In this document: piece by piece, positions 10,615-62,012 of the stretch
Layout: the number at the start of each line of letters is the position of its first letter
Position numbering within the stretch: position 1 is the first letter of the stretch
DNA from: an uncultured Chloroflexia bacterium
Lineage (GTDB): Bacteria; Chloroflexota; Limnocylindria; Limnocylindrales; CSP1-4
Reading direction: 5' to 3'
NCBI GenBank assembly: GCA_963755285.1
Contig: CAVWJB010000005.1
Coordinates: forward strand, 94,433-158,432
Length of the DNA: 64,000 bases
Notes under the pieces: generated by a model
The model's input: the letters and a program-made list of their open reading frames with translations, nothing else
Databases searched by the model: none
What the model was told of the DNA's origin: nothing
Program-made: the position numbers and the translations under genes

Positions 10615-10645
10615 ATCGAGCGCCATCGGGAGACTCGGTCGAGGG

Positions 10646-34583: not shown

Positions 34584-35693
34584 TCAACGCGACGTTCGCA
34601 GAACGCCGAGTTCCCTCATCCGGGACTGCGCCGCCTCGAAGGTGTCGCTCAGGTCGGGCTGGTCCGAGGCCCAGCCGAGGTACTCGTCGACCATCGCTGT
34701 CTGATCGATGGCGGGCGCCCAGCCAAACGCCTTGAGCCGCGAGACATCGCTGAAGATGTGGCGCGTGTCGCCGACCCGGAAGACGCCGGGTATCTCCGGC
34801 CGCACAGAAGACCCGGCGCAGCGGACAACCAGCTCGGCCAACTCGCGAACGGACACCTTGCGATCGCCGCCCACGTTGAAGACGTGACCGACCGCACGCT
34901 CGTCTTCGAAAGCCAGCAGGTTCGCCCGGACAACGTCGTGAACCGAGACGTAGTCCCGGATCTGCTCGCCGTCCTCGAACAGGATTGGCGCACGCCCTGT
35001 AAGGACGCGAACCGCGAACGCCCGGAGCGCTCCCGAATAGGCATTTCGGAATGACTGTCGAGGTCCCTGAACGATCGAATAGCGCAGCGCGACGCTCGGG
35101 ATTGAATATCGCCGGCCCAGGAGCAGGGCGATGTCTTCCTGGTCGCGCTTGGACAGTCCATAGCTGTTGTGAGGATGGGGAACGGCTTCGCTTGTCCAGG
35201 TTGGCTGTGTGGGTCCTCCGCAGACCGGACAGTGGATCGCCCAGTCCTGTTGATCGAGCTGCGCAGGCAACCGTTGGTCCGGGTGCGTGAGGCCGTGGAT
35301 CGGGCAGAGATGGGCCCCCTCGCCGTAGACCGCCTGCGAGGACGCCACGACCACCTTCTGGATCGGCAACCGCTCGGTGACGATCAGCTCGTAAAGGAGG
35401 GCGGTGCCCACGCTGTTGGTGAGGAAGAACCTCGAGAAGTCGGTGAGATAGTCCTGGTACGCGGCGAAGTGAAAGACCGCTTCGACGCCCTGGAGCGCAC
35501 GGTGCAGGACCTCGCGATCGGTCACCCCGCCGTCGATGAACTCGACGTCCGACGGAACGTACTCAGGGCGGCGACCCGTGTGCACGGGCGGTTCGAGCGA
35601 GTCGAGGATGCGCACCTGATGGCCCTTCGCGAGCAGGGCGTCGACCGTGTGCGACCCGATGAATCCTGCCCCGCCCGTGACCAGCACCCTCAC
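34584..35693 (-). CDS. NAD-dependent sugar epimerase/dehydratase (SDR) with an inserted C4 zinc-ribbon (CPIHG...CPVCG)
   Basis: 369 aa from GTG 35693, which overlaps the upstream stop (GTGA). Motifs VLVTGGAGFIGSH, YGLSK catalytic Y-x3-K. Confidence 0.75.
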   Translation of the reverse strand: MRVLVTGGAGFIGSHTVDALLAKGHQVRILDSLEPPVHTGRRPEYVPSDVEFIDGGVTDREVLHRALQGVEAVFHFAAYQDYLTDFSRFFLTNSVGTALLYELIVTERLPIQKVVVASSQAVYGEGAHLCPIHGLTHPDQRLPAQLDQQDWAIHCPVCGGPTQPTWTSEAVPHPHNSYGLSKRDQEDIALLLGRRYSIPSVALRYSIVQGPRQSFRNAYSGALRAFAVRVLTGRAPILFEDGEQIRDYVSVHDVVRANLLAFEDERAVGHVFNVGGDRKVSVRELAELVVRCAGSSVRPEIPGVFRVGDTRHIFSDVSRLKAFGWAPAIDQTAMVDEYLGWASDQPDLSDTFEAAQSRMRELGVLRTSR

Positions 35694-37261
35694 GATGCGC
35701 CCCGCCCCGAAAGGACGGCGGGGACGGTCCGGACCAGAATCTGAAGATCGAGCCCCAAGGACCAGCGCTCGATGTACTCGAGATCGAGACGGAGCCAATC
35801 CTCGAAATCGGTGATCTGGTTTCGACCGGCGACTTGCCAAAGACAGGTGATCCCGGGCTTCACGGCAAGCTTGGCCCGCTGTCGCTCCGAGAATCGGGCG
35901 AATTCGCTCTGGAGCGGCGGACGCGGACCGACCAGGCTCATGTCGCCGACGAGCACGCTCCAGAGCTGGGGCAACTCATCGAGGCTGTAGCGTCGCAGGA
36001 TCCGTCCGACGCGCGTGATCCGAGGATCGCCGCGCATCTTGAAGACGGGGCCTGACATCTCGTTGGCCCCTTCGAGCGCCGCCTTGAGCTCATCGGCATT
36101 GGTCACCATGCTCCGGAACTTGAAGCCGGTGAACGGCCGCCCAGCGCGTCCCACGACACGCCACCGGTAGAGCACCGGTCCCCCGTCACCAAGCTTGATG
36201 GCCAGTGCGATCGCTGCGAGCAACGGGCTCAGGACCACGAGCAGGGTCGCGGAGACGACGACATCGAGGATGCGCTTGGCGGCTCGTTCGGCCGGCGAAC
36301 GGCGAGATCGTGACGATACCGTCTCGCGGGGCGGGTACGGGTCCGCCGTCGTCATCTCCTTCGACTCGAGGCGCTTCGACCGGCCCGCGCTGGTCGCGCT
36401 GGTCGCGAGGACCCGGACGATCCCGGCCGCCAATCCCGCTGCGATGCCCGCATACACAGCGGCATTCACCAGCATCGGATAGCGCGGCGCGATGTTCTTC
36501 CGGTGGTAGAGCACGAGCGAGCGATGGAACTGCCAGACGGTCCGGAGCGGCCGCTGCCCGGTGCTGGTCCCCTTGTGATGCTCGACGACGACGCCAGGGT
36601 GATAGACCACTCGCCAATCCGCCTGCCGAGCGCGCCAGCAGAGATCCTCGTCCTCGCAGTACAGGAAGAACCGCTCGTCAAACCCTCCGATCTGCTCGAT
36701 CACGCGGTGCGGCATCAGCATGAACGCGCCGACCACCGAATCGACGTCTGCCAACTCGTGCTCGTCGAGGTAGGACAGGTAATAGCGGCCAAAGCGCCGG
36801 TGGCGCGGAAACGCCCGGCTGAGCCCCACGGACTTGTAGAAGTACGTCGCGGGGGTCTTGAACGAGCGTCGAGCGGGCGGATCCAGCCGTCCGTCGGGAA
36901 GCAGGATCCGGGCGCCAAGGATGCCCACGTCGGGGTTCGCTCGAAGGTGGGCCAGACCGGTCGAGATGGCGTCCGGGGCGACCAGAGCATCGGGGTTCAG
37001 GAAGAGGATGAACTGACCCCGAGCGACCCGGAGCGCCTGGTTGTTTGCCGCCCCGTAGCCGACGTTGCGAACGTTGCTGATCAGCCGGGTTCCCGGGAAG
37101 ACCTCCGTCGCGGTCGCGCTGCCGTCCTTCGATGCGTTGTCGACGACGAAGACCTCCGTGTCGGGCGGCACGGCCGCGACCAACCGCGAGAGGCACTCGC
37201 GCAGCAGCGGACCACCGTTGTAGTTGACGATGACGACCGAGAGCGACGGTCGGGCGGTCAT
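35690..37261 (-). CDS. bifunctional protein: N-terminal GT2 glycosyltransferase fused to a C-terminal PglC/WecA-type small phosphoglycosyl transferase (Bac_transf domain)
   Basis: 523 aa. Residues 1-about 290: SVVIVNYNGG...VDNASKDGS...DEDLCWR (GT-A). Residues about 330-523: ILDVVVSATLLVVLSPLLAAIALAIKL...FKFRSM...DPRITRVGRILRRYSLDELPQLWSVLVGDMSLVGPRP...PGITCLWQVAGR. Start overlaps the upstream stop (ATGA). Confidence 0.75.
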   Translation of the reverse strand: MTARPSLSVVIVNYNGGPLLRECLSRLVAAVPPDTEVFVVDNASKDGSATATEVFPGTRLISNVRNVGYGAANNQALRVARGQFILFLNPDALVAPDAISTGLAHLRANPDVGILGARILLPDGRLDPPARRSFKTPATYFYKSVGLSRAFPRHRRFGRYYLSYLDEHELADVDSVVGAFMLMPHRVIEQIGGFDERFFLYCEDEDLCWRARQADWRVVYHPGVVVEHHKGTSTGQRPLRTVWQFHRSLVLYHRKNIAPRYPMLVNAAVYAGIAAGLAAGIVRVLATSATSAGRSKRLESKEMTTADPYPPRETVSSRSRRSPAERAAKRILDVVVSATLLVVLSPLLAAIALAIKLGDGGPVLYRWRVVGRAGRPFTGFKFRSMVTNADELKAALEGANEMSGPVFKMRGDPRITRVGRILRRYSLDELPQLWSVLVGDMSLVGPRPPLQSEFARFSERQRAKLAVKPGITCLWQVAGRNQITDFEDWLRLDLEYIERWSLGLDLQILVRTVPAVLSGRGAS

Positions 37262-38472
37262 GCGGCCCGCTCCGCAAGGACCGAGTCGTACAAGGCCTCG
37301 ATCCGGAGGGCATACGCCCCAACCTCGAAGTCCTCGATCGCGCGGATCCGACCCGCGGCTCCCATGCTCCTTGCGCGCGAAGGATCGGCCAGGATCCGCA
37401 GCACGGCGGCCGCCGCCGCCTTCCAGTCGCCGGGCGGGACCAGCTCGCCGGTGAGCCCGTCAACCACGACCTCGCTGATCCCGCCGATGCGAGACGCCAC
37501 GACCGGACGGGCCGTGGCCATCGCCTCGACGAGTACGAGCCCGAACGGTTCGGGACCGGTCGGTGGATGCAGGAGGACATCGATGGCCGCCATGACTTCG
37601 GCGATTTCACCCAAGGTGTATCGCCAGCCGGTGAACAGGATCCGCCCGTCGAGTCCGACATTCGAGGCAAGGTCGCGGACGCCCTGAGCGTAATCCTCGT
37701 ATCCGTGCAGCTCCCCGCCGCAAACGATGAACCGGACATCCGGCCGCTCCAGTGCGATCTCGGCCGCCGCCCGAACGAAGACGTCGGCACCCTTCCACGG
37801 ATCAAGTCGGGCGACGAAGCCCACGACTGGAGTCTCGGGGTCGATCCCCAGCTCGGTCCGGATCCTCGCCCCACTGATCGATGGATGAAACTCTTCCACA
37901 TCGATTCCGTCCGGAATTGGCACGATCGAGGGGCCCAGCCGGTCCCTCGGCCCGAACAGCTCGGCGACCGCGAACGTCATCGGCACCACGCGGCGCGCGC
38001 TAAGGCGCACGACGGATGCCAGAGCGCGGCGCATTGGCTTTGGACCGCTCGGGATCTCCCGGATGTGCCAGACATGAGGGCGCCCGACGAGCAACGACGC
38101 CCACATCCCGTAGAGGGAGTAGAGCGAGTTGGAATGGACCAGTTGGGCACGCTCCCGGCGGATCAACCGAGCGAGCCGAATCACTGCGGGCCAGAATGCC
38201 AGGCAGAAGCGCAACTGGTAGGCCGGGTCCCTGATCGGCCTCAGCTGCAGCATCGGCACGAACCGGACCGGGATCTTGGCGGCTCGAAGGCTGGCCACGA
38301 GTGGGCCGTCTCCCGGGAGGACGACGACGGGCCGGTAGCGTGTGCGGTCGAGGGCTGCCACCAGCCGAAAGAGGGCGATGTCCGAGCCGCCGACCTCCGA
38401 GCTCGGCTGGACATAGACAACCGTAGCCGGGGCACCAGCACGTACCGGATCAGCCGAAGCGGCGACCGTCAC
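37258..38472 (-). CDS. GT4-family glycosyltransferase
   Basis: 404 aa from GTG 38472, which overlaps the acetyltransferase stop (GTGA). C-terminal EPFGLVLVEAMATARPVVASRIGGISEVV motif. Confidence 0.75.
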   Translation of the reverse strand: MTVAASADPVRAGAPATVVYVQPSSEVGGSDIALFRLVAALDRTRYRPVVVLPGDGPLVASLRAAKIPVRFVPMLQLRPIRDPAYQLRFCLAFWPAVIRLARLIRRERAQLVHSNSLYSLYGMWASLLVGRPHVWHIREIPSGPKPMRRALASVVRLSARRVVPMTFAVAELFGPRDRLGPSIVPIPDGIDVEEFHPSISGARIRTELGIDPETPVVGFVARLDPWKGADVFVRAAAEIALERPDVRFIVCGGELHGYEDYAQGVRDLASNVGLDGRILFTGWRYTLGEIAEVMAAIDVLLHPPTGPEPFGLVLVEAMATARPVVASRIGGISEVVVDGLTGELVPPGDWKAAAAAVLRILADPSRARSMGAAGRIRAIEDFEVGAYALRIEALYDSVLAERAA

Positions 38473-39209
38473 GAGGCCGACCGTGCGCGGATGAACCGGG
38501 CAGGATTCCCGGCCACGACGGTCCCCGGGGCCACGTCGTGAGTGACCACGGAGCCCGCGCCGACGACGGATCCCGCGCCGATCTGGATCCCGTCGAGCAC
38601 GATCACCGAGTTGCCGAGCCAGCAATCGTCCTCGACTCGGATCCCGCGCCGGCTGACGCCCTGTTCGTTGATCGGACGGGCGGCATCCGCGAACGCATGG
38701 TCCTCTGCCAGGAGCTGAACGAACGCGCCCATCGTCACGTTCCGGCCGACGTCGATCCCACCCCCGGCGCCGAGGATCGCGTGCGGGCCGATGTACGTGT
38801 CATTCCCCACGCTGAGGCCGACACCAGGATCGGTCAGCTGGCTCGTCACCTGGATCCAGGCGAACTCGCGCACTCGCACGTTGTCGCCAAGGACGACGCC
38901 CCGCTGCCCGTAGCAGTTCATGAAGACGTAGTCACCGATGGCGACGTTCCGGCCAACCCGAAGCCGGTCCGGAAAGAGGATGTTGGTCTGGCGACCGACG
39001 AACAACCGGCCGGTGCATTGACCCAGGCGCGGCCGAAGAAGCAACCCTCGGAGGTACGGCCAGAAGCCCTTCCGATAGCCGTAGTAGACGACGTCGCCGA
39101 GACCCGGACGACCACCCTCAGCCGAGATGGAGGCAACGCGCCGTGGGTCGATCCCCAGCAGCCGAACGTAGAGCCTCGTGGCGAGCGACGGACGAGCCCC
39201 GCCGGCCAT
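38469..39209 (-). CDS. hexapeptide-repeat (left-handed beta-helix) sugar O-acetyltransferase
   Basis: 246 aa; repeated [LIV]G-x-x-x-x-I hexapeptides (VGRNVAIGDYVFM, IGPHAILGAGGGIDVGRNVTMGA, IGAGSVVGAGSVV). Confidence 0.75.
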   Translation of the reverse strand: MAGGARPSLATRLYVRLLGIDPRRVASISAEGGRPGLGDVVYYGYRKGFWPYLRGLLLRPRLGQCTGRLFVGRQTNILFPDRLRVGRNVAIGDYVFMNCYGQRGVVLGDNVRVREFAWIQVTSQLTDPGVGLSVGNDTYIGPHAILGAGGGIDVGRNVTMGAFVQLLAEDHAFADAARPINEQGVSRRGIRVEDDCWLGNSVIVLDGIQIGAGSVVGAGSVVTHDVAPGTVVAGNPARFIRARSAS

Positions 39210-39211
39210 GA

Positions 39212-40342
39212 TCAGTGGGTCTCCTCGTACACGTCGCGGTAGACCGCGAGGGTTTCGCGCGCGGTCCTCTCCCAGCTGAATGTCGCGGCGCGAGCCAGCC
39301 CGCGAGCCCGAAGATCGTCCCGAAGTCCCTGGTCCTCGATGGCTCGGACAATCGCTGCCGCGAGCACCGACGCGTTCGTTGGATCGTCGACGATGATGCC
39401 TGCGTCACCCACGACCTCGGGGAGGGAGCCACGGTTCGAGGCGACGACCGGTGTGCCGCAGGCCATCGCCTCGAGCACGGGCAGGCCAAAGCCCTCATGG
39501 AGGGACGGCATGACGACGAGGTCGGCCTCGCGATAGATGCCAGGCAATGTGGCGTCTGAAACGTGCCCGAGGTGTCGAACGTGGTCCTCGAGCCGGAGCG
39601 TGCTGATCAGCGCCAGCTGCCCGGGAGTGAATGGACTACCTACCTTGATGAGCTCGACCCGTTCCCCGGCCTCGCGGATCACAAGCGGCAGAGCTCGAAG
39701 GAGCCCTTCGACGTTCTTGTACGGCCCGCAATGACCGACATGGAGGATCCTCACGGTCGGTTTCCGATCGCTCCATTCAGCTCGTTCCTCGCCACTGTCT
39801 TCGCTGGGCGCGAAGCGAGGCGAGACGCCCAGCAGAGTGACCCGAACCCGCTGAGGGTCGATCCCGGTGAACCGGAGCAGGTCCTCGCGCGAACGCTCCG
39901 AGTTGGTCAGGATCCGGGCACACTTCGTGAGCGCTACGAGGTCGATTCGGTGGGCAAGGATCGACATGTGCGGATAGGGTTCGACCGGTAGCTCCCGTGC
40001 CCGAAACTTGAGCAGCATCGCGTCATGGAAGGTAGCGACCGTCCGGTGACGATCGAGGCTGAAGCCCAGATGGCCATAGCCATGATCGACGAGGTGATAG
40101 ACGTCGGCGAGGCGAGAACGAGCCTGCCACTGGTACACGAGGTATCGGTCGAGATAGCCGCCAACTTTCGCCGCAGGCGCAACGACGCCGAGTCGGCGGC
40201 GGAGGCGACCCTTGGGCCGGAAGTGGCGGAGCTCGAGGTCGGCTGGCGCGAGCGCCGACAGCGCCGCAGCCAGCTCGCGGGCGTAGACCTCGGAGCTCGT
40301 GCGACCCTCCTCAGGGATCGTGTGGAACAGGCCGACCCTCAT
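39212..40342 (-). CDS. GT4-family glycosyltransferase
   Basis: 376 aa; ...EGFGLPVLEAMACGTPVVASNRGSLPEVVGDAG... Confidence 0.75.
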   Translation of the reverse strand: MRVGLFHTIPEEGRTSSEVYARELAAALSALAPADLELRHFRPKGRLRRRLGVVAPAAKVGGYLDRYLVYQWQARSRLADVYHLVDHGYGHLGFSLDRHRTVATFHDAMLLKFRARELPVEPYPHMSILAHRIDLVALTKCARILTNSERSREDLLRFTGIDPQRVRVTLLGVSPRFAPSEDSGEERAEWSDRKPTVRILHVGHCGPYKNVEGLLRALPLVIREAGERVELIKVGSPFTPGQLALISTLRLEDHVRHLGHVSDATLPGIYREADLVVMPSLHEGFGLPVLEAMACGTPVVASNRGSLPEVVGDAGIIVDDPTNASVLAAAIVRAIEDQGLRDDLRARGLARAATFSWERTARETLAVYRDVYEETH

Positions 40343-40361
40343 GGCTCGACCGGGATCGCGC

Positions 40362-41574
40362 TCAGCTCGGTGAAGGAGCCCTCTGGGTCAATCGACCGCA
40401 GGATTCCCTCCACGACGCGCTCTCGGGTGAACCAAGGGATGAGCGCCTCGCACCTTCGGACAGATGCCAGCGCAGGTCCGGTTCGTCCACGAGAGTCTGG
40501 ACCCGCGCGGCGATGCTTGAAGCTGTCGGCTCGACAAAGAATCCGTTCTCGCCATCGACGACGAGCTCGTCCGTCCCGTTGATCCTGGTGACGATCAAGG
40601 GCAGCCCCGCACCCGCGGCCTCGAGGCTCACCAGCGAGAAGGCTTCGTAGGCCGAGGGGTAGACGAAGCAGTCGGCCGCCGCGTAGTAGCCCTCGATGTC
40701 GCGACGATAGCCCGCGAAGACGACGCGATCGCCGATGCCGAGTGCGCGCGATCGCTCGAGGTAGTAGTCGATGTCTTCCTGGCCAACGACGAGGAGCCTG
40801 ACCATGGGGTTCGGCACGAGGGCCAGGGCATCCAGCACGACCTGCAGGCCCTTGCGCTTGAAGTCACCAGCCGCTACGAAGAGGAGGACCAGCGCATCCT
40901 CCGGAATTCCGTGCCGAGTCCGGATTTCACGGCCTCGACGAGCACGCTCGGACGGCGATAGCCGGACACGCTCATCGACCATGTTCGGGACGACATCGAT
41001 CCGATCCTCGCGGACGCCGTAGTAGCGGACCAGCTCACGCTTGGTTCCCGTCGACACCGCAACGACCCGCCGTAGCCCACGCCGTCGATACATTCCGCGC
41101 TCGACCCGGCTGGCGAGTCCAAGGAAGAGCCGGTAGTGCGCATTGCGCAAGCGCTGGCGGACGCTGGTCGAGGGGAGGACGACGCCGCCCTGGCGCAAGC
41201 CGATCCGACCAGGCGGCCGCACAGAAATGGGCGTTCACGACATCCGCGAACAGACAGTCACCGCCGGTCGCCAGGATCACGTCGTACGGGCGGCGACCGG
41301 CGAGCCGATCCACCCAGAACAGGACCGTGTTGGCCAGCAGAAAGCTCACGTAGCGCGCCAGCCTGGGTCGCATGATCATCGGGACACGGCGTCTCACGAG
41401 CGGCGCATCGTCGATGTCCGCGATTTCCCCGGCGATGACCGTCACGTCCACGTGAGCTGCAAGGCCCTCCGCGAGCCAGGAGAGGCACTTCTCGGTGCCG
41501 CCACGCCGACTGAGGGACGGCGTCACGATCGCCACCTTGGGGCGACCCCCGGTTGCTGCACGCGGCGGAGCCAT
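40362..41574 (-). pseudogene. GT4-family glycosyltransferase with a +1 frameshift near 41190-41225
   Basis: N-terminal frame (41574-): Glyco_trans_4-like ...ILATGGDCLFADVVNAHFCAAAW|. C-terminal frame: |...VLPSTSVRQRLRNAHYRLFLGL...EAFSLVSLEAAGAGLPLIVTRINGTDELVVDG... Confidence 0.7.
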
Positions 41575-44132: not shown

Positions 44133-44213
44133 GACGACGACGGCCAGGAGCGCCAGCGACCTGGGTCCGAAGGTCGAGGTTCGCCAATCGTGTCGTCGAG
44201 GTCGCCTGCATGG

Positions 44214-50142: not shown

Positions 50143-50195
50143 CGCGGTGTCCGCTTCGCTCGGCCCGGTCCAGGTTCAGGCTGGTGCTCATCTGG

Positions 50196-50753
50196 TCACT
50201 TGCGGACGGCGAGCTCGATGCTCATGAAGAACGCGGGTTGGATCCAGCACAGGTGGCGTTCATAGAAAGCCGGCCACCGATTGGCCAGGCGGCGCATCAG
50301 GGCGTTCATGCGGGACGGGTGGAAGACGAGGAGCCGCCGGACATAGGCGAACCTCTTGTCCGTGTAATACGGATGAGCGGACGATCCGGTGAAGAAGTCG
50401 AAGCTGAACATCCCGAATTGATGGCAGTGGGTCGGATCGGTGAAGGCGTTGGCGCAGCTGAAGTGCGGCGTGGTGACGAAGACCCGTGCGCCCGGCCTGG
50501 ATACCCGATGGATCTCGTCCATCGTCGCGACGGTGTCCGGCAGGTGCTCGAGGATGTCGTGGCACCAGACCTCACGGAAGGCCTCGCTGGGAAAGGGCCA
50601 GGGAAACACGCGGAGGTCATGAACCACGTCCGGCCGACAGCTGGCATTCAGGTCGACGTTGAGCGCGCCGATCCTCGGGCTGAGTCCGCTACCGAGAACC
50701 AGGACGTCCGCAACAGACGCCGGCGTCCTGACGGGAAGCGTGAGCGTCGTCAC
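50196..50753 (-). CDS. class I SAM-dependent methyltransferase (Methyltransf_11/23-like)
   Basis: 185 aa from GTG 50753, which overlaps the dehydratase stop (GTGA). Motif I VLVLGSG; ...HDILEHLPD... Confidence 0.62.
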   Translation of the reverse strand: MTTLTLPVRTPASVADVLVLGSGLSPRIGALNVDLNASCRPDVVHDLRVFPWPFPSEAFREVWCHDILEHLPDTVATMDEIHRVSRPGARVFVTTPHFSCANAFTDPTHCHQFGMFSFDFFTGSSAHPYYTDKRFAYVRRLLVFHPSRMNALMRRLANRWPAFYERHLCWIQPAFFMSIELAVRK

Positions 50754-56071: not shown

Positions 56072-56820
56072 CAGGCCACTCCAACCGGCTGCTGCAGGTC
56101 GGCGACATGCGATCGGACGGTCCCGGCCTGAAGGTCCCTCTCGGCCTGGCGATATCGGTCGAGCGATCCAATGTCCAGGACGTAGTCCGGCGAGGCGAGG
56201 CCGTACAGGGGGAGACCGGCCTGAAGGAGCGCCGGAAAGAGGTCCGATCCGAAATCGAATGGCGTCGCCGGCGGCACGAGGTCGAGCACTCGGCGATGCA
56301 GGACGTAGATCCCGCTGTTGGCCAGGCGACCGAACTCGTCCGTCGCCGGCTTCTCGATGAACCGAATGACCCGACCAGCCGCGTCGAGCTGGACGATGCC
56401 GCTCCGGGTCGGGTCTTCGTTCTCGGCCAGGACGAGCGTTCCGACCCCACCGAACCCTCGATCGGCGCTCTCGAGCCGGGACAAGTCGACATCGGTGAGC
56501 ACATCGCCGTAGACCACCACGAACCGCTCGCCGAGGTACCAGTCCAGCTGTCGGGCGGCGCCGGCCGAACCCAGGAGCTCGCGCTCCGGCGAGTAGGTGA
56601 TCCGAACGCCGAAGCGCGAACCATCACCAAAGTGGTCGACGATCGCCTCAGGGCGATAGTGCAGATTGATCGCGATGTCGCGGATCCCGTGGTGCGCCAA
56701 CAGAGCGACGAGGTGCTCGAGAAGGGGCCGACCGGCCAGGGAAAGCATCGGCTTCGGCCGATCCAGGGTCAGAGGACGCAACCGGATGCCTTCGCCGGCC
56801 GCCAGGACGAGCGCTTTCAT
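56071..56820 (-). CDS. hddC: sugar-1-phosphate nucleotidyltransferase, D-glycero-alpha-D-manno-heptose-1-phosphate guanylyltransferase (HddC-like)
   Basis: 249 aa; MKALVLAAGEGIRLRPLTLDRPKPML...; context. Confidence 0.68.
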   Translation of the reverse strand: MKALVLAAGEGIRLRPLTLDRPKPMLSLAGRPLLEHLVALLAHHGIRDIAINLHYRPEAIVDHFGDGSRFGVRITYSPERELLGSAGAARQLDWYLGERFVVVYGDVLTDVDLSRLESADRGFGGVGTLVLAENEDPTRSGIVQLDAAGRVIRFIEKPATDEFGRLANSGIYVLHRRVLDLVPPATPFDFGSDLFPALLQAGLPLYGLASPDYVLDIGSLDRYRQAERDLQAGTVRSHVADLQQPVGVA

Positions 56821-57413
56821 CTCGCACCGACGAGAATCCGCTGCGATCCACTCACGCCGACGGAACCAGTGACGAACCGGGCGGCCTGGAGCAAGCCCGG
56901 CAGGACGGCGAGACAGCCGGTCGGAAGCTCGTCCTCGGGAGGCTGTTCACGAGTCCGTCCGCTCAGCAGCAGGATCGAGGAGCAGCCCGCACGTCGGGCC
57001 GCCTCCAGGTCGTGCGGATGGTCGCCGATCATCAGGGCGTCGGACGGCTCGATCCCCAGTCGGGCAGCTGCTTCGACGAGGAGCCCCGGCTCCGGCTTCC
57101 GGCAGGCGCAGCCTTCGTCTGGACGATGAGGACAGAGCAGAACCGCCCGAATTGCCCCGCCCCGCCGTGCGATCTCCGCGACCATCCTCTCGTGGATGCG
57201 GTCCACGACGTCCCGGGCGACGATCCCTCGATTCACGATCGACTGGTTGGTGACGACAACCACCTGGAAGCCGGATCGGGTGAGCAGGGCGAGACCATCC
57301 AGCACGCCAGGCAAGAACTCGAGGTCTGACCAGGTGCGGACGTGTTCGGCCCGGTTGACGTTGATCACGCCGTCCCGGTCGACGAAGACGGCGGGTGCCC
57401 CGTGCCCCTTCAT
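56817..57413 (-). CDS. gmhB: D-glycero-D-manno-heptose 1,7-bisphosphate phosphatase (HAD-IIIA, GmhB)
   Basis: 198 aa; VFVDRDGVIN, VVVVTNQS, C-x-H-x6-C-x-C zinc motif (CPHRPDEGCACRKP), MIGDHPHDLEAA. Confidence 0.75.
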   Translation of the reverse strand: MKGHGAPAVFVDRDGVINVNRAEHVRTWSDLEFLPGVLDGLALLTRSGFQVVVVTNQSIVNRGIVARDVVDRIHERMVAEIARRGGAIRAVLLCPHRPDEGCACRKPEPGLLVEAAARLGIEPSDALMIGDHPHDLEAARRAGCSSILLLSGRTREQPPEDELPTGCLAVLPGLLQAARFVTGSVGVSGSQRILVGAR

Positions 57414-57964
57414 CGCTCGATGGGCACCTCCGTGGGTACGGAGCGGAGGGCTGCGGCGAGCGCGTGGCCCACGGCCGCGTGGACGTCCTCGACGACGCCG
57501 TAATCGTTCGCCGGGACATGGATCGCGACGTCGGCGAGGTCGCGGGTGTCGCCACCCTGGAATCCGATCAGCCCGATGACCTGTGCGCCACAGGCCTGCG
57601 CGGAGCGAACCGCAGCCACGATGTTCGGGGACTTCCCGCTCGAGCTGATCGCGATCACCACGTCGTCCGGATCGACGAGGGCTTCGATCTGGGCTGCGAA
57701 GACGCGTTCGTACGAGGTGTCATTTGCCCAGGCCGACAGAAGCGGAACGCTGTCGGTCAGGGCGAACGAGCGGAGCGGGCGCCCACCGTCCTGGGCCGCA
57801 GTCTTGGTCAGGTCGCAGACGAGATGGCTGGCGAGGGCGGCGCTGCCGCCGTTGCCGATAACCCACACCCGGCGACCCGTCGAGCGGGCGGCCAGCAACA
57901 GGTCGATCGCCCGGTTCAGCGGTTCGGCTGGCACTCGTTGCAGCGTCTCCGCGACCCGCGTCAT
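57410..57964 (-). CDS. gmhA: phosphoheptose isomerase (SIS domain, GmhA)
   Basis: Conserved core starts at MTRVAETLQRV...VWVIGNGGSAALASHLVCDL...ISSSGKSPNIV. An in-frame GTG at 58066 overlapping the Wzc stop (GTGA) would add 34 low-complexity residues, so the true start is 57964 or 58066. Confidence 0.7.
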   Translation of the reverse strand: MTRVAETLQRVPAEPLNRAIDLLLAARSTGRRVWVIGNGGSAALASHLVCDLTKTAAQDGGRPLRSFALTDSVPLLSAWANDTSYERVFAAQIEALVDPDDVVIAISSSGKSPNIVAAVRSAQACGAQVIGLIGFQGGDTRDLADVAIHVPANDYGVVEDVHAAVGHALAAALRSVPTEVPIER

Positions 57965-58062
57965 GTGCCGCTGAGCGACAGTGTGAGCCGGTGGCCTGGA
58001 CACGGGAACCGGCGCGCGGGTCGTCGGCGCGATCGCCACCGTGACGGACGCTCGGCGGCTGG

Positions 58063-59645
58063 TCACTGGACGCCGCGGTGCTGGGCCGGGGGTTGCGGCA
58101 TGGCGACCATGTCCTTATCGCCGTAGCCGCCGTAGTAGTAGTTCAGGTTCTCCACCGATCGTTTCGGGACCTGATTGATGACGGATCCCAGAACTCGTGC
58201 TCCGGCCTTGGTGAGCGCCTCCCGCGCGTGACCTGCCTGGCCGCCCTTGGTGCGGCCGGCCTGGACGACGACGATGGTCACGTCGGCGATCGAGGCCAGG
58301 ATCGCTCCGTCGGCGACGCCCGAGACGGGCGGGCTATCGAGCACGATCACGTCGAACTCGTCGCCGAGCTGCTTGAGGATCTCGCGGAAACGATCGGAGC
58401 CCAGGAGCTCTGCCGGGTTCGGCGGCAACGGACCGCTGGTGATGATCTGCAGCCCCTCCTGGTCGGTTTCCTGGCCGACCGATCCCGGGCTGACGTCCGG
58501 GTCCAGCAGGAGTGACGTGAGCCCACGCCTGTTCGTAAGGTTGAAGATGCGATGGGCGCCCGGCTTTCGGAGGTCCGCGTCCACCAGGACCGTACGCTTG
58601 CCGGCCTGGGCGAATGCAACCGCGAGGTTGGCGGCGGTGGTTGTCTTGCCCTCGCCCTGCGAAGGGCTCGTGACGAGCACCGTCTTCATCTCAGCGTCGA
58701 CGCTGGCGAAGGCGATGTTCGCTCGGAGCGTGCGGTATGACTCGGCCGCCGAGGAGCGCGGGTAGACCAACGTGACAAGGCGGTAGATCTCGCTCCTGGC
58801 GCGATTGCCCGGCAGCTTCGCGATGAGACCAAGAGTCGAAGCCCCGACAATCGCATCGACGTCGGATGCCGTCTTCAGCGTGTCATCGAGGTGCTCCACG
58901 ACGAACGCGATGGCGGCGGCGACCAGCAGACCGATCAGGCCGGCCAGGGCGGTATTCAAGAGGATGCGCGGTGAGGAAGGCGCCGATGGAGGCAGTGCCT
59001 GTTGGTCGAATGCCACCGAGTTGGTCGGGGGCTTTGACGACAGCAGGAGCGTCGCCAGGGTTGCTCGGAGGGCGCCCAGCTGCTGGGTAACGGTCTCGAG
59101 CCGGGCTCGCTGAAGGGCTTCGGCGAGGACAGTGCCTCGAGCGTCTGCTGCTCGCTCTCAGCCTTGCCGATCTGACCGGTGATCGCGGCAATCTGATCGT
59201 CGATGATCTTGTCGTAGGCGGTCTTGCTGCCCACCGGGGGCGCCACTGCGATGAGCGCGTCGCCCACCGCGTTGGCGATGACCGCCGCCCTGGTCGGGTC
59301 CCCATCCTGGGCGCTGATCAGGATCTGCGCGCTGTCGGTTGAAGCAGCGACCTGAACCCGGGCTTGGAGCTCAGCCGGGTCGGAGCCGGGGAGCTTCTCG
59401 GCAACGGCCTGGAACAGCGATCGATCCGCCTTGTCGACATAGAACCGGACGAGCTGCTGGGCGATCGTGATCTGGTTCGGGTCCGGGTTCTGCAGGATCA
59501 GGAACTGGCCCACCCCCAGCTTGGCCTGAGCCTCGTACGTCGGCGGAATCGTCCGGCTGACCATGAAGGCGGCCCCGCCGGCGAGCGCGACGCTCGCCAC
59601 CAGCAGCCACGCCCAGCGCCGCAGGACGCTCAGCTGCCTGTTCAC
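58063..59645 (-). pseudogene. wzc: Wzc-type polysaccharide co-polymerase (Wzz domain) fused to a BY-kinase (CpsD/CapB tyrosine kinase) domain, frameshifted near 59140-59160
   Basis: N-terminal frame: MNRQLSVLRRWAWLLVASVALAGGAAFMVS...ITGQIGKAESEQQ|. Downstream frame: |...TVLAEALQRARLETVTQQLGALRATLATLLLSSKPPTNSVAFDQQ...second TM...VTSPSQGEGKTTTAANLAVAFAQAGKRTVLVDADLRKP (Walker A)...VLDSPPV...YYYGGYG. Confidence 0.7.
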
Positions 59646-59939: not shown

Positions 59940-60040
59940 GGCCACGCCTTCTTCGTAGAGGGTAAGCATAGGCAACGAGTAAATAGGTAGGCTGGGCTAC
60001 GGTGTTAAGAAATGGCTAGTACTTTACGCTCAATCGGAGG
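59940..60040. promoter_or_regulatory. AT-rich island (taagcataggcaacgagtaaataggtaggctgggctacggtgttaagaaatggctagtactttacgct) at the 3' end of the DUF4012 gene and 370 bp upstream of wzc. Candidate promoter or regulatory region for the glycan operon.
   Basis: Stands out sharply against the surrounding 70%+ GC. The 59646-60015 intergenic stretch has no credible ORF. Confidence 0.3.
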
Positions 60041-62012
60041 TCGGTCTGGAACGTCGTGACCAGCGTTGCCGTGTCGCCCGAAACCGTAAGACCGTCCGTT
60101 GTGGACTTGATCCGGGAGCCGGACGGGGCGTGGATCGTCAGGCTCAGCGGCCCGGGCAAGAGCCCCGGCTGTTTCTGAATCAGCAGGCGATACAGGCGGT
60201 CCCCTTGGTCGGCGACGGCGGCCCCTGAGGTCGTCCAAACGTAGCGCAGGCTCGTCTGGCCAGGAGGCGCCAGGAGGTAGGTTCCGACGACGACGCGACC
60301 GGCCTCGTTGGCAACAACGGCGGGCGCCGTGACCTCCGCGGACTGCCCGCCTGAGACAGCGTCGATCGAGCTTCCTTCGGGCGCCAGGAGCCGGAAGTAG
60401 ATCCCGAGATTACGCAGGTGCTTGTTTCCTGGAAGCTCACGATAGGGTGTGCCGGCCGGGGTCATGATTCCGTTGTCCCACGTGATGTCCAAGGTGTGAA
60501 CCGCGTTGCCCGCGGCGTCGAGCGCGACGTCGAGTACCAGGCTCCGGGTGGTGACTGCGTTCAGCTTCGAGGACGGTAAGACGTTCGAGTCGACGGCATA
60601 GACATAGTCGCCGGGCTCGTCTATCACCCCTCCTGCGAAGCCGCTCGTGACGGCAAGCGCCTGGTCGTCCGGGTTCTTGAACCACGCGAGCAACAGGTGC
60701 TGGCGCTGGAGCGTGTCCGCCGCGCTGGCCAGCCCCGTCCACTGCTTCGACGGGAGGGCGAGCAATCGATCGAATATCTGGTCGGCGAACGCCGACAGAA
60801 ACGCCTTGCGGGTCGCTCCGGGCTTGGCCACACGGGTCAGCTGGAGCGTCTTGAGCGTGGTCTCCCCCGTTGCGATCGTGGCCTGGTACGCGGGCACGTC
60901 GATCGGTCCGGTGATCTTCAGCAGCTCGTCGATCGTGTAGGTCGTGATCCCGAGGACGCCGTCGATCTGCTTGTCGCCTGATTCGTTGGTGTACAGCCGA
61001 AGAGCATCCTGCGCGCTCGTGGGAAAGTCGGGTGACCAATTGGCGGCGATCAGCTGCCATGGCTGCTTCGTCGAACCGAGCAGGTAGGTCGACAGGTCGG
61101 CCGGCGGTTTGATGAAGGGGTAGTCCGGCGGCAGGTCGAGGTCGAAGACGTCGTGAAAGCTCCGATCGGTGACCCGGCCGCGGTCAAACGTGACGACGCC
61201 ATAGCTACCGAGGAAGCCGCCGGTCGGACGAAGCTCCGCTGGGTCCTGGGTCAGGACGAGGTAGCGCCGAGGACCGTCCCATCCGAGCATCGCCGGAAGT
61301 CGTCCGCTGAGTTCCACGTACGAGTCGAGCAGGGGGCCATACCGGGCCACGCGTTCGATGATCGCATCGCGTGCGCCGTCGACCGGCCCGGCCAGTCCGT
61401 CCGGTACGGTCGCCAGCTTCGCCTGGGCGCGAGCAAGCGCGGCCTGGGCGGCAAGGGCTCGTGTCACGCGATGTGACCATCAACTCGACCAACTGAGCCA
61501 TCGCCGAGCCACTCGCCGGGGTCCGTCGCCCGGGCCTCCTTGATCTCCACGTATCGGACCCCCATCGCGAGACCGTCGTCAGCAGCATCAAGCAGATCGC
61601 GGGAGGCCGCGACGACCGCTTCTGCACCCGTGACCTGGTCCGCGGTCGGGGGCAGCACCCGAGCCAGCCCGAGCAGCGGGTCAGTGGAGAGGAGATCCGA
61701 GACGTGATCCAGCCGGGCACGGGCGGCCCGCAGGTCCCGATCGAGACTTCCGATCATCGGCCGATCGATGCCCAGACCGGCGGTCTGAACACGCGAAGCC
61801 ATCGTTTCCAGGTCCGTTCGAAGGCTCCGAGCCTCGTCGAGCGCTGGCAGATACCGGACGACGGCGAGTGCGGCGCTTGCCGTGGCCAGGACGAGCAGGA
61901 TCACACCGGCTCCGAGCACGACGTATCGGCGGCGCCTCGGGCTCCTGCGCCGACGCTGCCGGCCGATGGGTTTGGCGAACAGCCGCGCCAGTCTCGGTTC
62001 CGGATCGGTCAT
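60016..62012 (-). pseudogene. DUF4012 domain-containing protein (N-terminal TM anchor), split by a one-base frame change at 61464-61470
   Basis: N-terminal ORF (182 aa) has a TM (YVVLGAGVILLVLATASAALAVV) and ends ...GSVGRVDGHIA*. The 483-aa ORF starts 3 nt away in another frame (V/MTRALAAQAALARAQAKLATVPDG...). Both halves match the about 600-aa DUF4012 architecture; family assignment from memory. Confidence 0.58.

What the first reader, a model, noticed from the sequence alone, without database searches (positions are those of the whole stretch)
34584..62012. About 28-kb single-strand glycan locus combining a GDP-heptose pathway, a CDP-deoxyhexose/C-methylation pathway, two initiating phosphoglycosyl transferases and a Wzx/Wzy/Wzc export set
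About 25 consecutive minus-strand genes, mostly with overlapping stop/start codons (ATGA/GTGA), encode: gmhA-gmhB-hddC-hddA (GDP-D-glycero-alpha-D-manno-heptose); rfbF plus CDP-glucose 4,6-dehydratase plus a zinc-ribbon C-methyltransferase-like enzyme plus a small SAM methyltransferase (a methylated CDP-6-deoxyhexose); a zinc-ribbon SDR epimerase/dehydratase; two PGTs; eight GT4/GT2 transferases; an acetyltransferase; Wzx; a Wzy/ligase-like protein; Wzc (Wzz plus BY-kinase); a DUF4012 protein. In a Gram-positive/actinobacterial-type genome (whiA, rapZ, DUF4012, no LPS genes) activated heptose is unusual outside S-layer glycans, capsules and natural products. The combination with a C-methylated CDP-sugar suggests an undescribed heptose-containing envelope heteropolysaccharide or protein glycan. 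Having two initiating enzymes suggests either two repeat-unit chemistries or one inactive paralogue.
Basis: partly seen in the sequence, partly recalled or inferred. Interest (0 to 1): 0.8.

Follow-up and report, generated by a model that had tools for sequence, protein, structure and literature searches.

The report
Chloroflexota heptose polysaccharide locus, dead initiator
This is a real but fairly ordinary 28-kb surface-polysaccharide gene cluster from an uncultured soil Chloroflexota bacterium (not an actinobacterium), and its one unusual part is a widely conserved initiating-enzyme look-alike that lacks its catalytic residues and always sits directly after the heptose kinase gene.

Summary
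Window 34584-62012 carries 24 co-directional minus-strand genes, most joined by ATGA/GTGA overlaps. They encode a GmhA-GmhB-nucleotidyltransferase-HddA heptose module, RfbF with a CDP-glucose-4,6-dehydratase-like enzyme, two methyltransferases, an SDR with a Cys-rich insertion, 7 GT4 and 1 GT2 transferases, an acetyltransferase, Wzx, a Wzy-like protein, Wzc and DUF4012.

Corrections:
- The genome is Chloroflexota. The nearest public DNA is a 'Chloroflexia' Nanopore MAG at 93.6% identity.
- Four genes are split by 1-bp indels that are intact in relatives, so these are probably assembly errors.
- The 'C-methyltransferase' call is only weakly supported.
- All sugar-pathway enzymes score below the curated equivalog cut-offs, and GDP as the heptose nucleotide is inferred.
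- HddA-type heptose genes are common in Chloroflexota metagenomes.

New point: the second 'PGT' has WbaP-type architecture but a ~35-residue deletion, with Arg-Gly replacing the Asp-Glu catalytic dyad. About 105 homologues share this, down to ~41% identity, and looser variants occur down to ~30%. In all 9 independent loci inspected the gene directly follows hddA. The fused GT2-PGT is the canonical initiator.

Verdict: a standard Wzx/Wzy-type heteropolysaccharide locus of a known kind, with an undescribed dyad-less PGT paralogue. Interest is moderate.

The parts
60016..62012 (-). DUF4012 membrane protein with one N-terminal hydrophobic segment. In the window it is split into ORFs 61464-62012 and 60016-61467.
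   Evidence: PF13196 E=3e-30. It is an intact 664-aa ORF in L001 and L003. The window has two 1-bp insertions relative to L003 at about 61517 and 61462. Hydrophobic segment.
58063..59645 (-). Wzc-type co-polymerase fused to a BY-kinase (Wzz-like N-terminus plus P-loop kinase with a C-terminal YYYGGY cluster). Split in the window.
   Evidence: Wzz, AAA_31, CbiA and ParA hits. The intact 527-aa orthologue in L001 hits TIGR01007 at 199 bits against a cut-off of 108. The window lacks 1 bp at about 59115 relative to L003. Walker A (GEGKT) and the Tyr cluster were read from the translation.
57410..58066 (-). GmhA-like sedoheptulose-7-phosphate isomerase (SIS domain).
   Evidence: SIS_2 E=4e-20. The best NCBIfam matches are phosphoheptose isomerases: NF010546 at 108 bits (cut-off 276) and TIGR00441 at 103 bits (cut-off 209).
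56817..57413 (-). GmhB-like heptose-1,7-bisphosphate 7-phosphatase (HAD-IIIA).
   Evidence: NF006506 at 166 bits against a cut-off of 178; TIGR01662 HAD-IIIA at 100 bits against a cut-off of 44.6.
56071..56820 (-). Sugar-1-phosphate nucleotidyltransferase in the HddC position. Its heptose-1-phosphate guanylyltransferase role is inferred.
   Evidence: NTP_transferase E=1e-41. NCBIfam best hit is the Rv-type mannose-1-P guanylyltransferase at 174 bits; the HddC model scores 92 bits against a cut-off of 300. PDB: UGPase 4e-47, mannose-1-P guanylyltransferases 4e-33, Yersinia HddC 5e-20.
55007..56071 (-). HddA-type GHMP kinase (D-glycero-D-manno-heptose-7-phosphate kinase).
   Evidence: GHMP_kinases_N and _C hits. 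Best NCBIfam hit is HddA NF049969 at 156 bits against a cut-off of 600. Best PDB hits are heptose kinases: WcbL 4usm/4usk at 5e-48, 3k85 and 4n3o. The next family, fucokinase, scores 5e-16.
53601..55010 (-). PGT*: a large (WbaP-type) phosphoglycosyl-transferase-like protein that lacks the Asp-Glu catalytic dyad. Its start overlaps the hddA stop by 4 bp.
   Evidence: CoA_binding_3 hit, plus Bac_transf matching only profile positions 91-175. In the alignment to WbaP, 'DELPQL' aligns with 'RGMPAL', and about 38 residues are missing upstream. The same is seen against the window's own PGT1 and in about 105 homologues. AF2 pLDDT 86; Foldseek finds WbaP at E=3e-14 and PglC at TMt 0.66.
52807..53604 (-). 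RfbF/DdhA-like glucose-1-phosphate cytidylyltransferase.
   Evidence: TIGR02623 at 266 bits (cut-off 300), matched over the whole 255-position profile.
51781..52810 (-). Zn-ribbon class I SAM methyltransferase (356 aa when intact), frameshifted in the window.
50750..51784 (-). CDP-glucose 4,6-dehydratase-like SDR.
   Evidence: TIGR02622 at 219 bits (cut-off 278) is the best of 24 NCBIfam hits. The GDP-mannose dehydratase model scores only 57 bits.
50196..50753 (-). Small SAM methyltransferase, an accessory gene.
   Evidence: Partial Methyltransf_11 hit, E=6e-6. This 530-bp segment is present in L003 but absent from L001, L002 and L004.
48661..50142 (-). Wzx-type flippase (multi-pass membrane protein).
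   Evidence: No Pfam hit for the window copy. Positional orthologues hit Polysacc_synt PF01943. About 12-13 hydrophobic segments. A 1-bp indel at 50158 affects the N-terminus.
45176..48664 (-). Three GT4 glycosyltransferases (47627-48664, 46426-47634, 45176-46429).
   Evidence: Glycos_transf_1 and Glyco_transf_4 hits, E from 1e-24 to 1e-38.
44214..45179 (-). GT2 glycosyltransferase.
   Evidence: Glycos_transf_2 E=1e-14.
42885..44132 (-). Wzy-like polymerase or ligase candidate (multi-pass membrane protein).
   Evidence: Wzy_C E=1.4e-3, at 18.8 bits against a cut-off of 31.7. HpsL E=9e-7. At least 8 hydrophobic segments.
39212..42742 (-). Three GT4 glycosyltransferases (41693-42742; 40362-41574, split by a frameshift; 39212-40342).
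   Evidence: Glycos_transf_1 and Glyco_transf_4 hits. ORFs 41035-41574 and 40362-41222 overlap and together make one GT4 of about 404 aa.
38469..39209 (-). Hexapeptide-repeat O-acetyltransferase (WcaF-like).
   Evidence: Hexapep E=5e-14. WcaF-family NF007797 E=3e-22, below its cut-off.
37258..38472 (-). GT4 glycosyltransferase.
   Evidence: Glycos_transf_1 E=6e-36.
35690..37261 (-). PGT1: a GT2 domain fused N-terminally to a complete monotopic PGT core (a Bi-PGT). It is the probable initiating enzyme.
   Evidence: Bac_transf matched over profile positions 1-178 of 179, E=6e-65, plus Glycos_transf_2. KFRSM, DPRITRVGR, DELPQL and VGPRP motifs are all present. TIGR03025 at 286 bits against a cut-off of 296.
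34584..35693 (-). GalE-like extended SDR (epimerase or 4-ketoreductase) with an insertion of about 37 residues carrying C-x4-H ... C-x2-C.
   Evidence: The Epimerase hit is in two stretches. The alignment to Thermotoga GalE 4zrm breaks between query residues 140 and 178. YxxxK was read from the translation.
62175..63954 (-). They are conserved neighbours of DUF4012 in relatives.
   Evidence: LysM E=1e-17 and 1e-15. The LysM-DUF4012-Wzc order recurs in L001, L002 and L006.

Best explanation
The locus is a Wzx/Wzy-type assembly line for a cell-surface heteropolysaccharide (capsule or EPS-like) in a soil Chloroflexota bacterium.

Precursor supply:
[quoted passage not shown] The enzymes are shown by homology. 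GDP as the nucleotide is inferred.
- RfbF and the 4,6-dehydratase make CDP-4-keto-6-deoxy-glucose. This is probably reduced or epimerised by the insertion-bearing SDR to a CDP-6-deoxyhexose. No 3-deoxygenation genes are present.
- One or two SAM methyltransferases and a hexapeptide acetyltransferase decorate the sugars or the repeat unit. The position and the type (O or C) of methylation are unknown.

Assembly:
- The GT2-PGT fusion, which keeps all catalytic motifs, starts the unit on undecaprenyl phosphate and adds the second sugar.
- Seven GT4 and one GT2 extend it.
- Wzx flips it, the Wzy-like protein polymerises it, and Wzc (PCP plus BY-kinase) controls polymerisation.
- DUF4012 and the LysM proteins are conserved wall-side accessories of unknown role.

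The second PGT (PGT*) is a conserved WbaP-like paralogue with Arg-Gly in place of the Asp-Glu dyad. It cannot use the canonical covalent phosphosugar mechanism. Its gene overlaps hddA, so the two are probably translationally coupled. It most likely acts non-catalytically, as a membrane scaffold or a nucleotide/lipid-binding regulator that ties heptose supply to assembly. This last step is inference.

The frameshifts are most probably long-read assembly errors.
For: - Gene content and families.
- Operon-like packing: fourteen 4-bp overlaps.
- HddA is closest to solved heptose kinases.
- RfbF and the dehydratase have the CDP-specific models as best hits.
- PGT1 has a full Bac_transf match and all motifs.
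- PGT* lacks the dyad in three independent alignments (Pfam partial match; phmmer to WbaP; MAFFT).
- In 106 family sequences the replacing Arg-Gly is 99% conserved, and many residues in the PF13727 domain are invariant.
- The fold is retained.
- hddA immediately precedes PGT* in the window and in L001, L002/L004, L003, L006, L007, L008 and three JGI contigs, 9 independent loci in all. This holds whichever of the two proteins was used to find the locus.
- The Asp-Glu dyad is the conserved catalytic element of monoPGTs, and the PF13727 domain mediates dimerisation and nucleotide sensing in WbaP (PMC10942596).
- DUF4012 and the methyltransferase are intact in the 93.6%-identical relative L003, and L003 has its own independent frameshift in Wzc. 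The relatives are Nanopore MAGs.
Against: - Every sugar-nucleotide enzyme scores below its NCBIfam equivalog cut-off, so substrate assignments are at family level only.
- The HddC-position enzyme resembles UGPase and mannose-1-P guanylyltransferases more than characterised HddC.
- Wzx and Wzy are weakly supported by HMMs.
- No LCP ligase, phosphatase or export component was found, so the fate of the polymer is unknown.
- In L007, L008 and two JGI contigs, no canonical PGT lies within the stretch inspected around PGT* (up to 10 kb on each side). This leaves open that PGT* is itself functional in initiation.
- The frameshifts could be real pseudogenisation.
- No expression or chemical data exist.
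Confidence: 0.62

Rival explanations
1. The locus glycosylates a protein (an S-layer or other surface protein) rather than making a free or wall-linked polysaccharide. In this reading the Wzy_C-like membrane protein acts as an O-oligosaccharyltransferase or ligase instead of a polymerase.
For: - The only Wzy_C-related protein is a weak match, and Wzy_C domains also occur in O-OTases and ligases (established knowledge).
- The classic monoderm precedent for the HddA-type heptose route is an S-layer glycan (Aneurinibacillus; own knowledge).
- The relative L006 carries a sortase and a Big_1 surface protein between LysM and DUF4012.
Against: - A Wzc co-polymerase/BY-kinase is present. It is typical of Wzy-dependent capsule and EPS systems.
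- No S-layer (SLH) gene or obvious acceptor protein lies in the locus.
- The nine GT domains fit a large repeat unit.
Confidence: 0.13
2. PGT* is a working enzyme with a non-canonical active site. For example, it could be a heptose-dedicated initiating transferase using a nucleotide-heptose. The locus then has two initiators, and therefore two glycans or two alternative first sugars.
For: - Its conservation is very strong. Several residues in the former catalytic domain are conserved in this family but differ from PGT1 at the aligned position: R353, R400, R419, W424, E425 and R428. R452 and W453 lie beyond the aligned end of PGT1.
- hddA is the immediately preceding gene in all 9 independent loci, with a 1-4 bp overlap in the seven DNA-held loci and a 29-62 bp gap in two JGI contigs.
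- Several divergent loci show no other PGT in the stretch inspected around PGT*, up to 10 kb on each side.
- Pseudoenzymes sometimes have relocated catalytic residues (PMC10211241 abstract).
Against: - The nucleophile-bearing Asp-Glu dyad and the roughly 35-residue segment carrying the KFRxM and DPR motifs are deleted.
- No acidic replacement is conserved at that site; it is Arg-Gly.
- To my knowledge no monoPGT is known to use a GDP-sugar.
- The window itself has a complete canonical PGT.
Confidence: 0.13
3. The window's copy of the locus is decaying. The frameshifts in DUF4012, Wzc, the methyltransferase and a GT4 (plus single-base indels at the Wzx N-terminus and a GT4 3' end) are real, so this strain no longer makes the glycan.
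For: - There are six 1-bp indels relative to L003 inside or at the ends of coding regions across 19 kb, and one more split GT4.
- The relative L001 has lost everything downstream of the dehydratase, so loss does occur in this clade.
Against: - Apart from the indels, the ORFs keep high GC3, and the split halves show full-length similarity to intact orthologues.
- L003 and L002 carry their own, different frameshifts in Wzc, as expected from random long-read errors.
- The closest relatives are Nanopore-only MAGs.
Confidence: 0.1
4. The gmh/hdd genes belong to a heptose-containing natural-product pathway (septacidin, hygromycin or aminoglycoside-like).
For: Heptose natural-product pathways exist (PMC9978623, listed). 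One distant locus (L008) has an NRPS fragment about 6 kb away.
Against: - There are no PKS, NRPS, aminotransferase, nucleoside or resistance genes in the window.
- The heptose genes sit between Wzc and a PGT-like gene, inside a Wzx / Wzy-like / GT cluster.
Confidence: 0.02

Closest known systems
[quoted passage not shown]
   Same: The same four enzyme types are present, including a GHMP-family heptose-7-P kinase rather than the ribokinase-type HldE. HddA is closest to WcbL among solved structures, at 5e-48. As in Aneurinibacillus, the setting is a locus without LPS genes.
   Different: - All four proteins score below the NCBIfam equivalog cut-offs.
- The nucleotidyltransferase is closer to mannose-1-P guanylyltransferases and UGPase than to characterised HddC.
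- The pathway is embedded in a Wzx/Wzy/Wzc locus, not an ABC-transporter locus.
- It is coupled to a dyad-less PGT paralogue, which none of these systems is known to have.
Yersinia pseudotuberculosis O-antigen gene clusters (PMC5399914)
   Same: These are Wzx/Wzy-dependent loci that combine a CDP-hexose module (ddhA = rfbF, ddhB = CDP-glucose 4,6-dehydratase) with other sugar modules. The 6-deoxy-L-altrose route uses ddhA and ddhB without 3-deoxygenation. Serotype O:2a additionally contains 6-deoxy-D-manno-heptose, which is derived from GDP-heptose (titles cited, plus own knowledge). The heptose plus CDP-6-deoxyhexose combination therefore has a precedent.
   Different: - Yersinia is a diderm and ligates the polymer to lipid A-core.
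- Initiation there is by WecA, not by a GT2-PGT fusion.
- There is no BY-kinase Wzc, DUF4012 or LysM gene, and no methyltransferase between ddhA and ddhB.
- There is no dead PGT.
Large monotopic phosphoglycosyl transferases (Lg-PGT; WbaP, CpsE, WcaJ) and bifunctional Bi-PGTs (PMC10942596)
   Same: PGT* has the Lg-PGT architecture: a 4-helix N-terminal bundle, the PF13727 domain and a C-terminal Bac_transf core with the re-entrant helix Pro and the PRP motif. PGT1 is a Bi-PGT, with a GT2 domain fused to the catalytic core.
   Different: - In PGT* the Asp-Glu catalytic dyad is replaced by Arg-Gly.
- About 35 residues are deleted, including the KFRxM and DPR motifs.
- It scores below the TIGR03025, TIGR03022 and TIGR03023 cut-offs.
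- It is genetically tied to hddA.
TcaB9 / TylC3-type NDP-sugar 3-C-methyltransferases
   Different: - There is no PF08421 or PF08484 match, and the C-terminal sugar-binding domain is absent.
- The protein is 356 aa against 416.
- Homologues often lie away from sugar-nucleotide genes.
- A true TylC3-like gene exists separately in the relative L006.

Membership tests
Wzx/Wzy-dependent polysaccharide assembly locus | An initiating polyprenyl-phosphate phosphoglycosyl transferase with intact catalytic motifs | tested here: met
   PGT1 (35690-37261) matches Bac_transf over profile positions 1-178 of 179, E=6e-65. KFRSM, DPR, DELPQL and PRP are all present.
Wzx/Wzy-dependent polysaccharide assembly locus | A Wzx flippase (MOP superfamily, Polysacc_synt) | tested here: inconclusive
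   The window copy gives no Pfam or NCBIfam hit. Positional orthologues at about 89% DNA identity hit PF01943. There are about 12-13 hydrophobic segments.
Wzx/Wzy-dependent polysaccharide assembly locus | A Wzy polymerase | tested here: inconclusive
   Wzy_C scores 18.8 bits against a cut-off of 31.7. HpsL E=9e-7. At least 8 hydrophobic segments. A polymerase cannot be told from a ligase or O-OTase.
Wzx/Wzy-dependent polysaccharide assembly locus | A polysaccharide co-polymerase with BY-kinase (Walker A/A'/B and a C-terminal Tyr cluster) | tested here: met
   TIGR01007 scores 199 bits against a cut-off of 108 on the intact orthologue. GEGKT and the YYYGGY tail are in the window translation. 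The window copy is split by a 1-bp deletion.
[quoted passage not shown] | A GHMP-type heptose-7-phosphate kinase (HddA) | tested here: met
   The best PDB matches are heptose kinases, from 5e-48 to 2e-36. The next family scores 5e-16. The best NCBIfam model is HddA, but at 156 bits it is far below the narrow cut-off of 600.
[quoted passage not shown] | GmhA isomerase and GmhB 7-phosphatase | tested here: inconclusive
   The best NCBIfam hits are the right families, but all are below their cut-offs: GmhA at 108 against 276, GmhB at 166 against 178.
[quoted passage not shown] | A heptose-1-phosphate guanylyltransferase (HddC), meaning GDP as the nucleotide | tested here: inconclusive
   The HddC model scores 92 bits against a cut-off of 300. 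Better hits are the mannose-1-P guanylyltransferase and UGPase. Nucleotide specificity cannot be tested by sequence.
CDP-3,6-dideoxyhexose pathway (DdhA-D) | DdhC (E1) and DdhD (E3), the 3-deoxygenation enzymes | tested here: not met
   Only RfbF/DdhA-like (266 bits against 300) and DdhB-like (219 against 278) genes are present. No PLP/PMP-dependent or iron-sulfur reductase gene lies in 34584-62012. The product is therefore at most a CDP-6-deoxyhexose.
TylC3/TcaB9 NDP-sugar C-methyltransferases | The Pfam Methyltransf_13 (PF08421) zinc domain and the Methyltransf_14 (PF08484) C-terminal domain | tested here: not met
Monotopic phosphoglycosyl transferases (Lg-PGT), for PGT* | Architecture: an N-terminal helical bundle, the PF13727 domain and a Bac_transf core with re-entrant helix and PRP | tested here: met
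Monotopic phosphoglycosyl transferases (Lg-PGT), for PGT* | [quoted passage not shown] | tested here: not met
   Arg353-Gly354 aligns with Asp-Glu of WbaP and of PGT1. It is 99% conserved across 106 family sequences. The segment carrying KFRxM and DPR is deleted.
   The closest genomes are 'uncultured Chloroflexia bacterium' MAGs, at 93.6% and 88-89% DNA identity. Named homologues are Chloroflexota.

The most novel reading that the evidence does not exclude
PGT* and its relatives form an undescribed functional class derived from large phosphoglycosyl transferases. They are retained for a heptose-specific role. One possibility is initiation from a nucleotide-heptose by a mechanism that does not use the Asp-Glu dyad. 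Another is a membrane sensor or scaffold that gates glycan assembly on heptose supply. The clade belongs to a much larger radiation of dyad-less Lg-PGT-like proteins: only 3 of the 150 nearest 50%-identity cluster representatives keep DELPQ.
Probability: 0.2. Interest if true: 0.75.

Novelty: new variant of a known kind. Interest (0 to 1): 0.42.

Why it matters
As a polysaccharide locus it adds one more uncharacterised cluster from an uncultured phylum. Its main value there is to show that the HddA-type heptose route is a common envelope-glycan trait of Chloroflexota, not a rarity.

The more useful lead is the dyad-less WbaP-like protein. It is strongly conserved, always paired with the heptose kinase gene, and part of a large unstudied radiation. 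If it is a regulator or scaffold, it would be the first pseudoenzyme described in the PGT superfamily. If it is active, it would show a second catalytic solution for glycan initiation. Both options can be tested directly with existing PGT assays.

Tried and rejected
- An exact-protein lookup of the window's HddA found nothing. The window itself is not in the gene index.
- Promoter and terminator consensus scans across the locus were at or below shuffle expectation, so they say nothing about transcription units.
- Rfam and ARAGORN found no RNA element in the locus.
- NCBIfam gave no model for DUF4012, Wzx or the small methyltransferase.
- Literature searches for heptose glycans in Chloroflexi, for Chloroflexota EPS clusters and for inactive or pseudo-PGTs returned nothing relevant.
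- The afdb50 fold library was unavailable, so I could not look for PGT* in cultured organisms.
- A secondary-metabolite origin was rejected for lack of any such genes.
- An actinobacterial origin was rejected.
- A 3,6-dideoxyhexose product was rejected because ddhC and ddhD are absent.
- The Vicinamibacterales locus L005 (41% HddA identity) was listed but not analysed further.

Full report
**1. Observation**

The window is high-GC, so I called genes by third-position GC and then by domain scans. Between 34584 and 62012 every supported gene is on the minus strand. After merging four ORF pairs that are split by frameshifts there are 24 genes.

In order of transcription they are:
- DUF4012
- Wzc (co-polymerase plus BY-kinase)
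- GmhA
- GmhB
- a sugar-1-P nucleotidyltransferase
- HddA
- a WbaP-like protein (PGT*)
- RfbF
- a zinc-ribbon SAM methyltransferase
- a CDP-glucose-4,6-dehydratase-like SDR
- a small methyltransferase
- Wzx
- three GT4
- one GT2
- a Wzy-like membrane protein
- three GT4
- a hexapeptide acetyltransferase
- one GT4
- a GT2-PGT fusion (PGT1)
- a GalE-like SDR with a Cys/His-rich insertion of about 37 residues

Fourteen junctions are 4-bp ATGA/GTGA overlaps, and two more overlap by 1 and 8 bp.

The locus is compositionally distinct from the housekeeping genes upstream, which include rapZ, a CofD/YvcK-family gene, tatC, recJ, secF and uvrC. GC is 67.1% against 71.2%, and mean GC3 is 0.825 against 0.922.

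**2. Source and sequence quality**

A scan of species-representative genomes with HddA returned three loci. Two are MAGs labelled 'uncultured Chloroflexia bacterium', with 99% and 95% protein identity. At DNA level the window is 93.6% identical to one of them over 19 kb and 88-89% identical to the other. Homologues that carry an organism name are Chloroflexota. The 'actinobacterial-type genome' premise is wrong.

These relatives come from the Microflora Danica Nanopore metagenomes.

Aligning the window with the 93.6% relative shows single-base indels at these positions:
- 61517 and 61462, in DUF4012
- 59115, in Wzc
- 52202, in the methyltransferase
- 50158, at the Wzx N-terminus
- 47771, at the end of a GT4

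DUF4012 and the methyltransferase are intact in the relatives. The relatives carry their own, different Wzc frameshifts. A seventh GT4 (40362-41574) is also split. Random long-read indel errors explain this pattern best. Real pseudogenisation cannot be excluded.

**3. Sugar-nucleotide modules**

HddA is the best-supported assignment. Its closest solved structures are the heptose kinases WcbL, 3k85 and 4n3o (5e-48 to 2e-36), while the next GHMP family scores 5e-16. GmhA and GmhB have the correct families as their best NCBIfam hits but fall below the cut-offs.

The nucleotidyltransferase in the HddC position resembles mannose-1-P guanylyltransferases and a UGPase more than the characterised Yersinia HddC. 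The alpha-anomer route follows from the kinase type, but GDP as the nucleotide is inference.

RfbF (266 bits against a cut-off of 300) and the dehydratase (219 against 278) have the CDP-specific models as their top hits. The GDP-mannose dehydratase model scores only 57 bits. No ddhC or ddhD equivalents exist in the locus, so the product is at most a CDP-6-deoxyhexose. This parallels the ddhA/ddhB-only route to 6-deoxy-altrose in Yersinia pseudotuberculosis (PMC5399914).

The only remaining SDR is the GalE-like enzyme at the distal end. It is the natural candidate for the 4-ketoreductase or epimerase. A Dehalococcoidia locus places an SDR with a similarly split Epimerase hit directly before an rfbF-like gene and a dehydratase, which is a hint in the same direction.

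**4. The 'C-methyltransferase'**

The intact 356-aa orthologue hits only generic class I methyltransferase families. It hits neither of the two Pfam families that mark TylC3/TcaB9 enzymes, even at E<=0.1. The same is true of 120 homologues.

Homologues lie next to rfbF and dehydratase genes in one Dehalococcoidia locus, but not in a cyanobacterial locus or in a further metagenome locus. A methylated sugar is likely. C-methylation is unproven.

**5. The two PGTs**

PGT1 is a bifunctional enzyme. It has an N-terminal GT2 domain, and a complete monotopic PGT core with KFRSM, DPRITRVGR, DELPQL and VGPRP. This is the 'Bi-PGT' class of PMC10942596.

PGT* has the full large-PGT architecture: four N-terminal helices, the PF13727 domain and a Bac_transf core. 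However, the Pfam model matches only positions 91-175. In alignments to WbaP structures and to PGT1, about 35 residues are missing, and the catalytic Asp-Glu is replaced by Arg-Gly.

This is not decay:
- About 105 homologues, down to about 41% identity, show the same deletion and an 'RG.PAL' motif. Looser variants continue to about 30% identity.
- Arg-Gly is 99% conserved.
- Dozens of positions are more than 90% conserved, especially in the PF13727 Rossmann-like domain, for example G161, S163, D188 and E221.
- The model is confident, and its nearest structures are WbaP and PglC.

A filter-free search of 1.8 billion cluster representatives gave 130 clusters at E<=1e-30. Among the best 150, only three keep DELPQ and KFRxM. 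The others carry RG.PAL, [AR]KLPGL, DKLPQL or [SA]RLPSL variants. I found no paper describing such proteins.

**6. Linkage to heptose**

In every locus I could inspect, hddA immediately precedes PGT*. The two overlap by 1-4 bp in the seven loci for which DNA was held (the window, L001, L002/L004, L003, L006, L007 and L008), and in one of the three JGI contigs (7 bp by the gene table). In the other two JGI contigs they are 29-62 bp apart. That makes 9 independent loci, with PGT* identity running from 46% to 96%.

The adjacency appears whether the locus was retrieved through HddA or through PGT*. About 26 further contigs carry homologues of both proteins, judged by matching contig lengths.

The gmhA-nucleotidyltransferase-hddA-PGT* block is the conserved core. 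The CDP module is shared only by the closer relatives. The Wzx/GT region varies: L001 is truncated after the dehydratase, and L006 has different GTs plus a true TylC3-like gene, a ketoisomerase-like gene and a formyltransferase. A constant core with a variable region is typical of capsule and O-antigen loci.

**7. Mechanism**

The best-supported reading is a Wzx/Wzy-type heteropolysaccharide pathway:
- It is initiated by PGT1 and extended by eight further GTs.
- The unit is acetylated and methylated.
- It is flipped by Wzx, polymerised by the Wzy-like protein and controlled by Wzc.
- A nucleotide-heptose and a CDP-6-deoxyhexose are the distinctive precursors.

PGT* cannot carry out the covalent Asp-phosphosugar chemistry of monoPGTs. 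In WbaP the PF13727 domain mediates dimerisation and senses nucleotides (PMC10942596). On that basis I infer that PGT* is a non-catalytic, membrane-anchored nucleotide- or lipid-binding partner that couples heptose supply to assembly.

The main caveat is that several distant loci show no canonical PGT in the stretch inspected around PGT*, up to 10 kb on each side. An unorthodox catalytic role therefore remains possible.

**8. Comparison with known systems, and novelty**

The heptose route matches the Aneurinibacillus, Burkholderia and Campylobacter GDP-heptose pathways in enzyme types. The combination of a CDP-6-deoxyhexose module with heptose in a Wzx/Wzy locus has a precedent in Yersinia pseudotuberculosis O antigens. 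HddA homologues are abundant in Chloroflexota metagenomes.

The locus is therefore a new member of a familiar kind of system. What pushes it to 'new variant' is the conserved, hddA-coupled, dyad-less Lg-PGT, which appears to be undescribed. Interest is moderate overall, and higher for PGT specialists.

Noticed in passing
window 61517, 61462, 59115, 52202, 50158, 47771; 41035-41222: Single-base indels relative to the 93.6%-identical MAG split DUF4012, Wzc, the methyltransferase and a GT4, and also fall at the Wzx N-terminus and a GT4 3' end. The relatives have their own, different frameshifts in Wzc. This is most likely long-read assembly error.
   Followed up: yes
window 32650-33540 and 33673-34563 (+); L003 1318-1670; L001 2691-2891: A UvrD-like helicase is present as separate N- and C-terminal ORFs abutting the distal end of the locus. 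A 350-bp UvrD_C remnant, 90% identical, lies on the opposite (LysM) side of the locus in relatives. This suggests a rearrangement, or flanking repeats at the locus boundary. The window ends before this could be checked.
   Followed up: partly
proteins P0371-P0517: Of the 150 nearest 50%-identity cluster representatives of PGT*, only 3 keep the canonical DELPQ and KFRxM motifs. The rest form several dyad-less clades with motifs RG.PAL, [AR]KLPGL, DKLPQL and [SA]RLPSL. This is a large unstudied radiation of PGT-like proteins.
   Followed up: partly
window 50224-50754: The small methyltransferase gene is a 530-bp segment present in the window and in L003, but precisely absent from L001, L002 and L004. 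It is a presence/absence accessory gene inside the otherwise collinear core.
   Followed up: partly
L001 15356-16162: In one relative the locus stops after the dehydratase. A Wzx remnant is fused to a flavin-reductase-like ORF and unrelated genes follow, so the GT and Wzx part has been lost or moved.
   Followed up: no
L006 3001-4313 and 17595-21089: A relative with 80% HddA identity has a Big_1 surface protein and a sortase between LysM and DUF4012. Its variable region contains a true TylC3-like C-methyltransferase (PF08421 plus PF08484), a dTDP-sugar isomerase-like gene and a formyltransferase.
   Followed up: no
JGI 3300047160 contig, locus coordinates 11413-11892: A NusG paralogue lies immediately after PGT*, and a second Lg-PGT gene lies 6 kb downstream. 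The NusG paralogue may be a dedicated antiterminator for the glycan operon.
   Followed up: no
window 2529-4520 (+): An ORF combines a response-regulator receiver domain with a ParA/MinD-like P-loop ATPase (CpaE/TadZ-like architecture).
   Followed up: no
window 31232-32383 (-) and 23905-26252 (-): A stand-alone ORF with SecD P1-head domains lies next to uvrC, several kb away from the secF/secD genes. It is either a duplicated or fragmented SecD, or another assembly artefact.
   Followed up: no
window 5237-7128 and 10372-10732 (-); 23185-23267: There are two tRNA clusters (Leu, Cys, Gln, Gly, Phe; and Val, Leu, Leu). ARAGORN also calls a tRNA-SeC inside the RecJ ORF that Rfam does not support, so it is probably a false positive.
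   Followed up: partly
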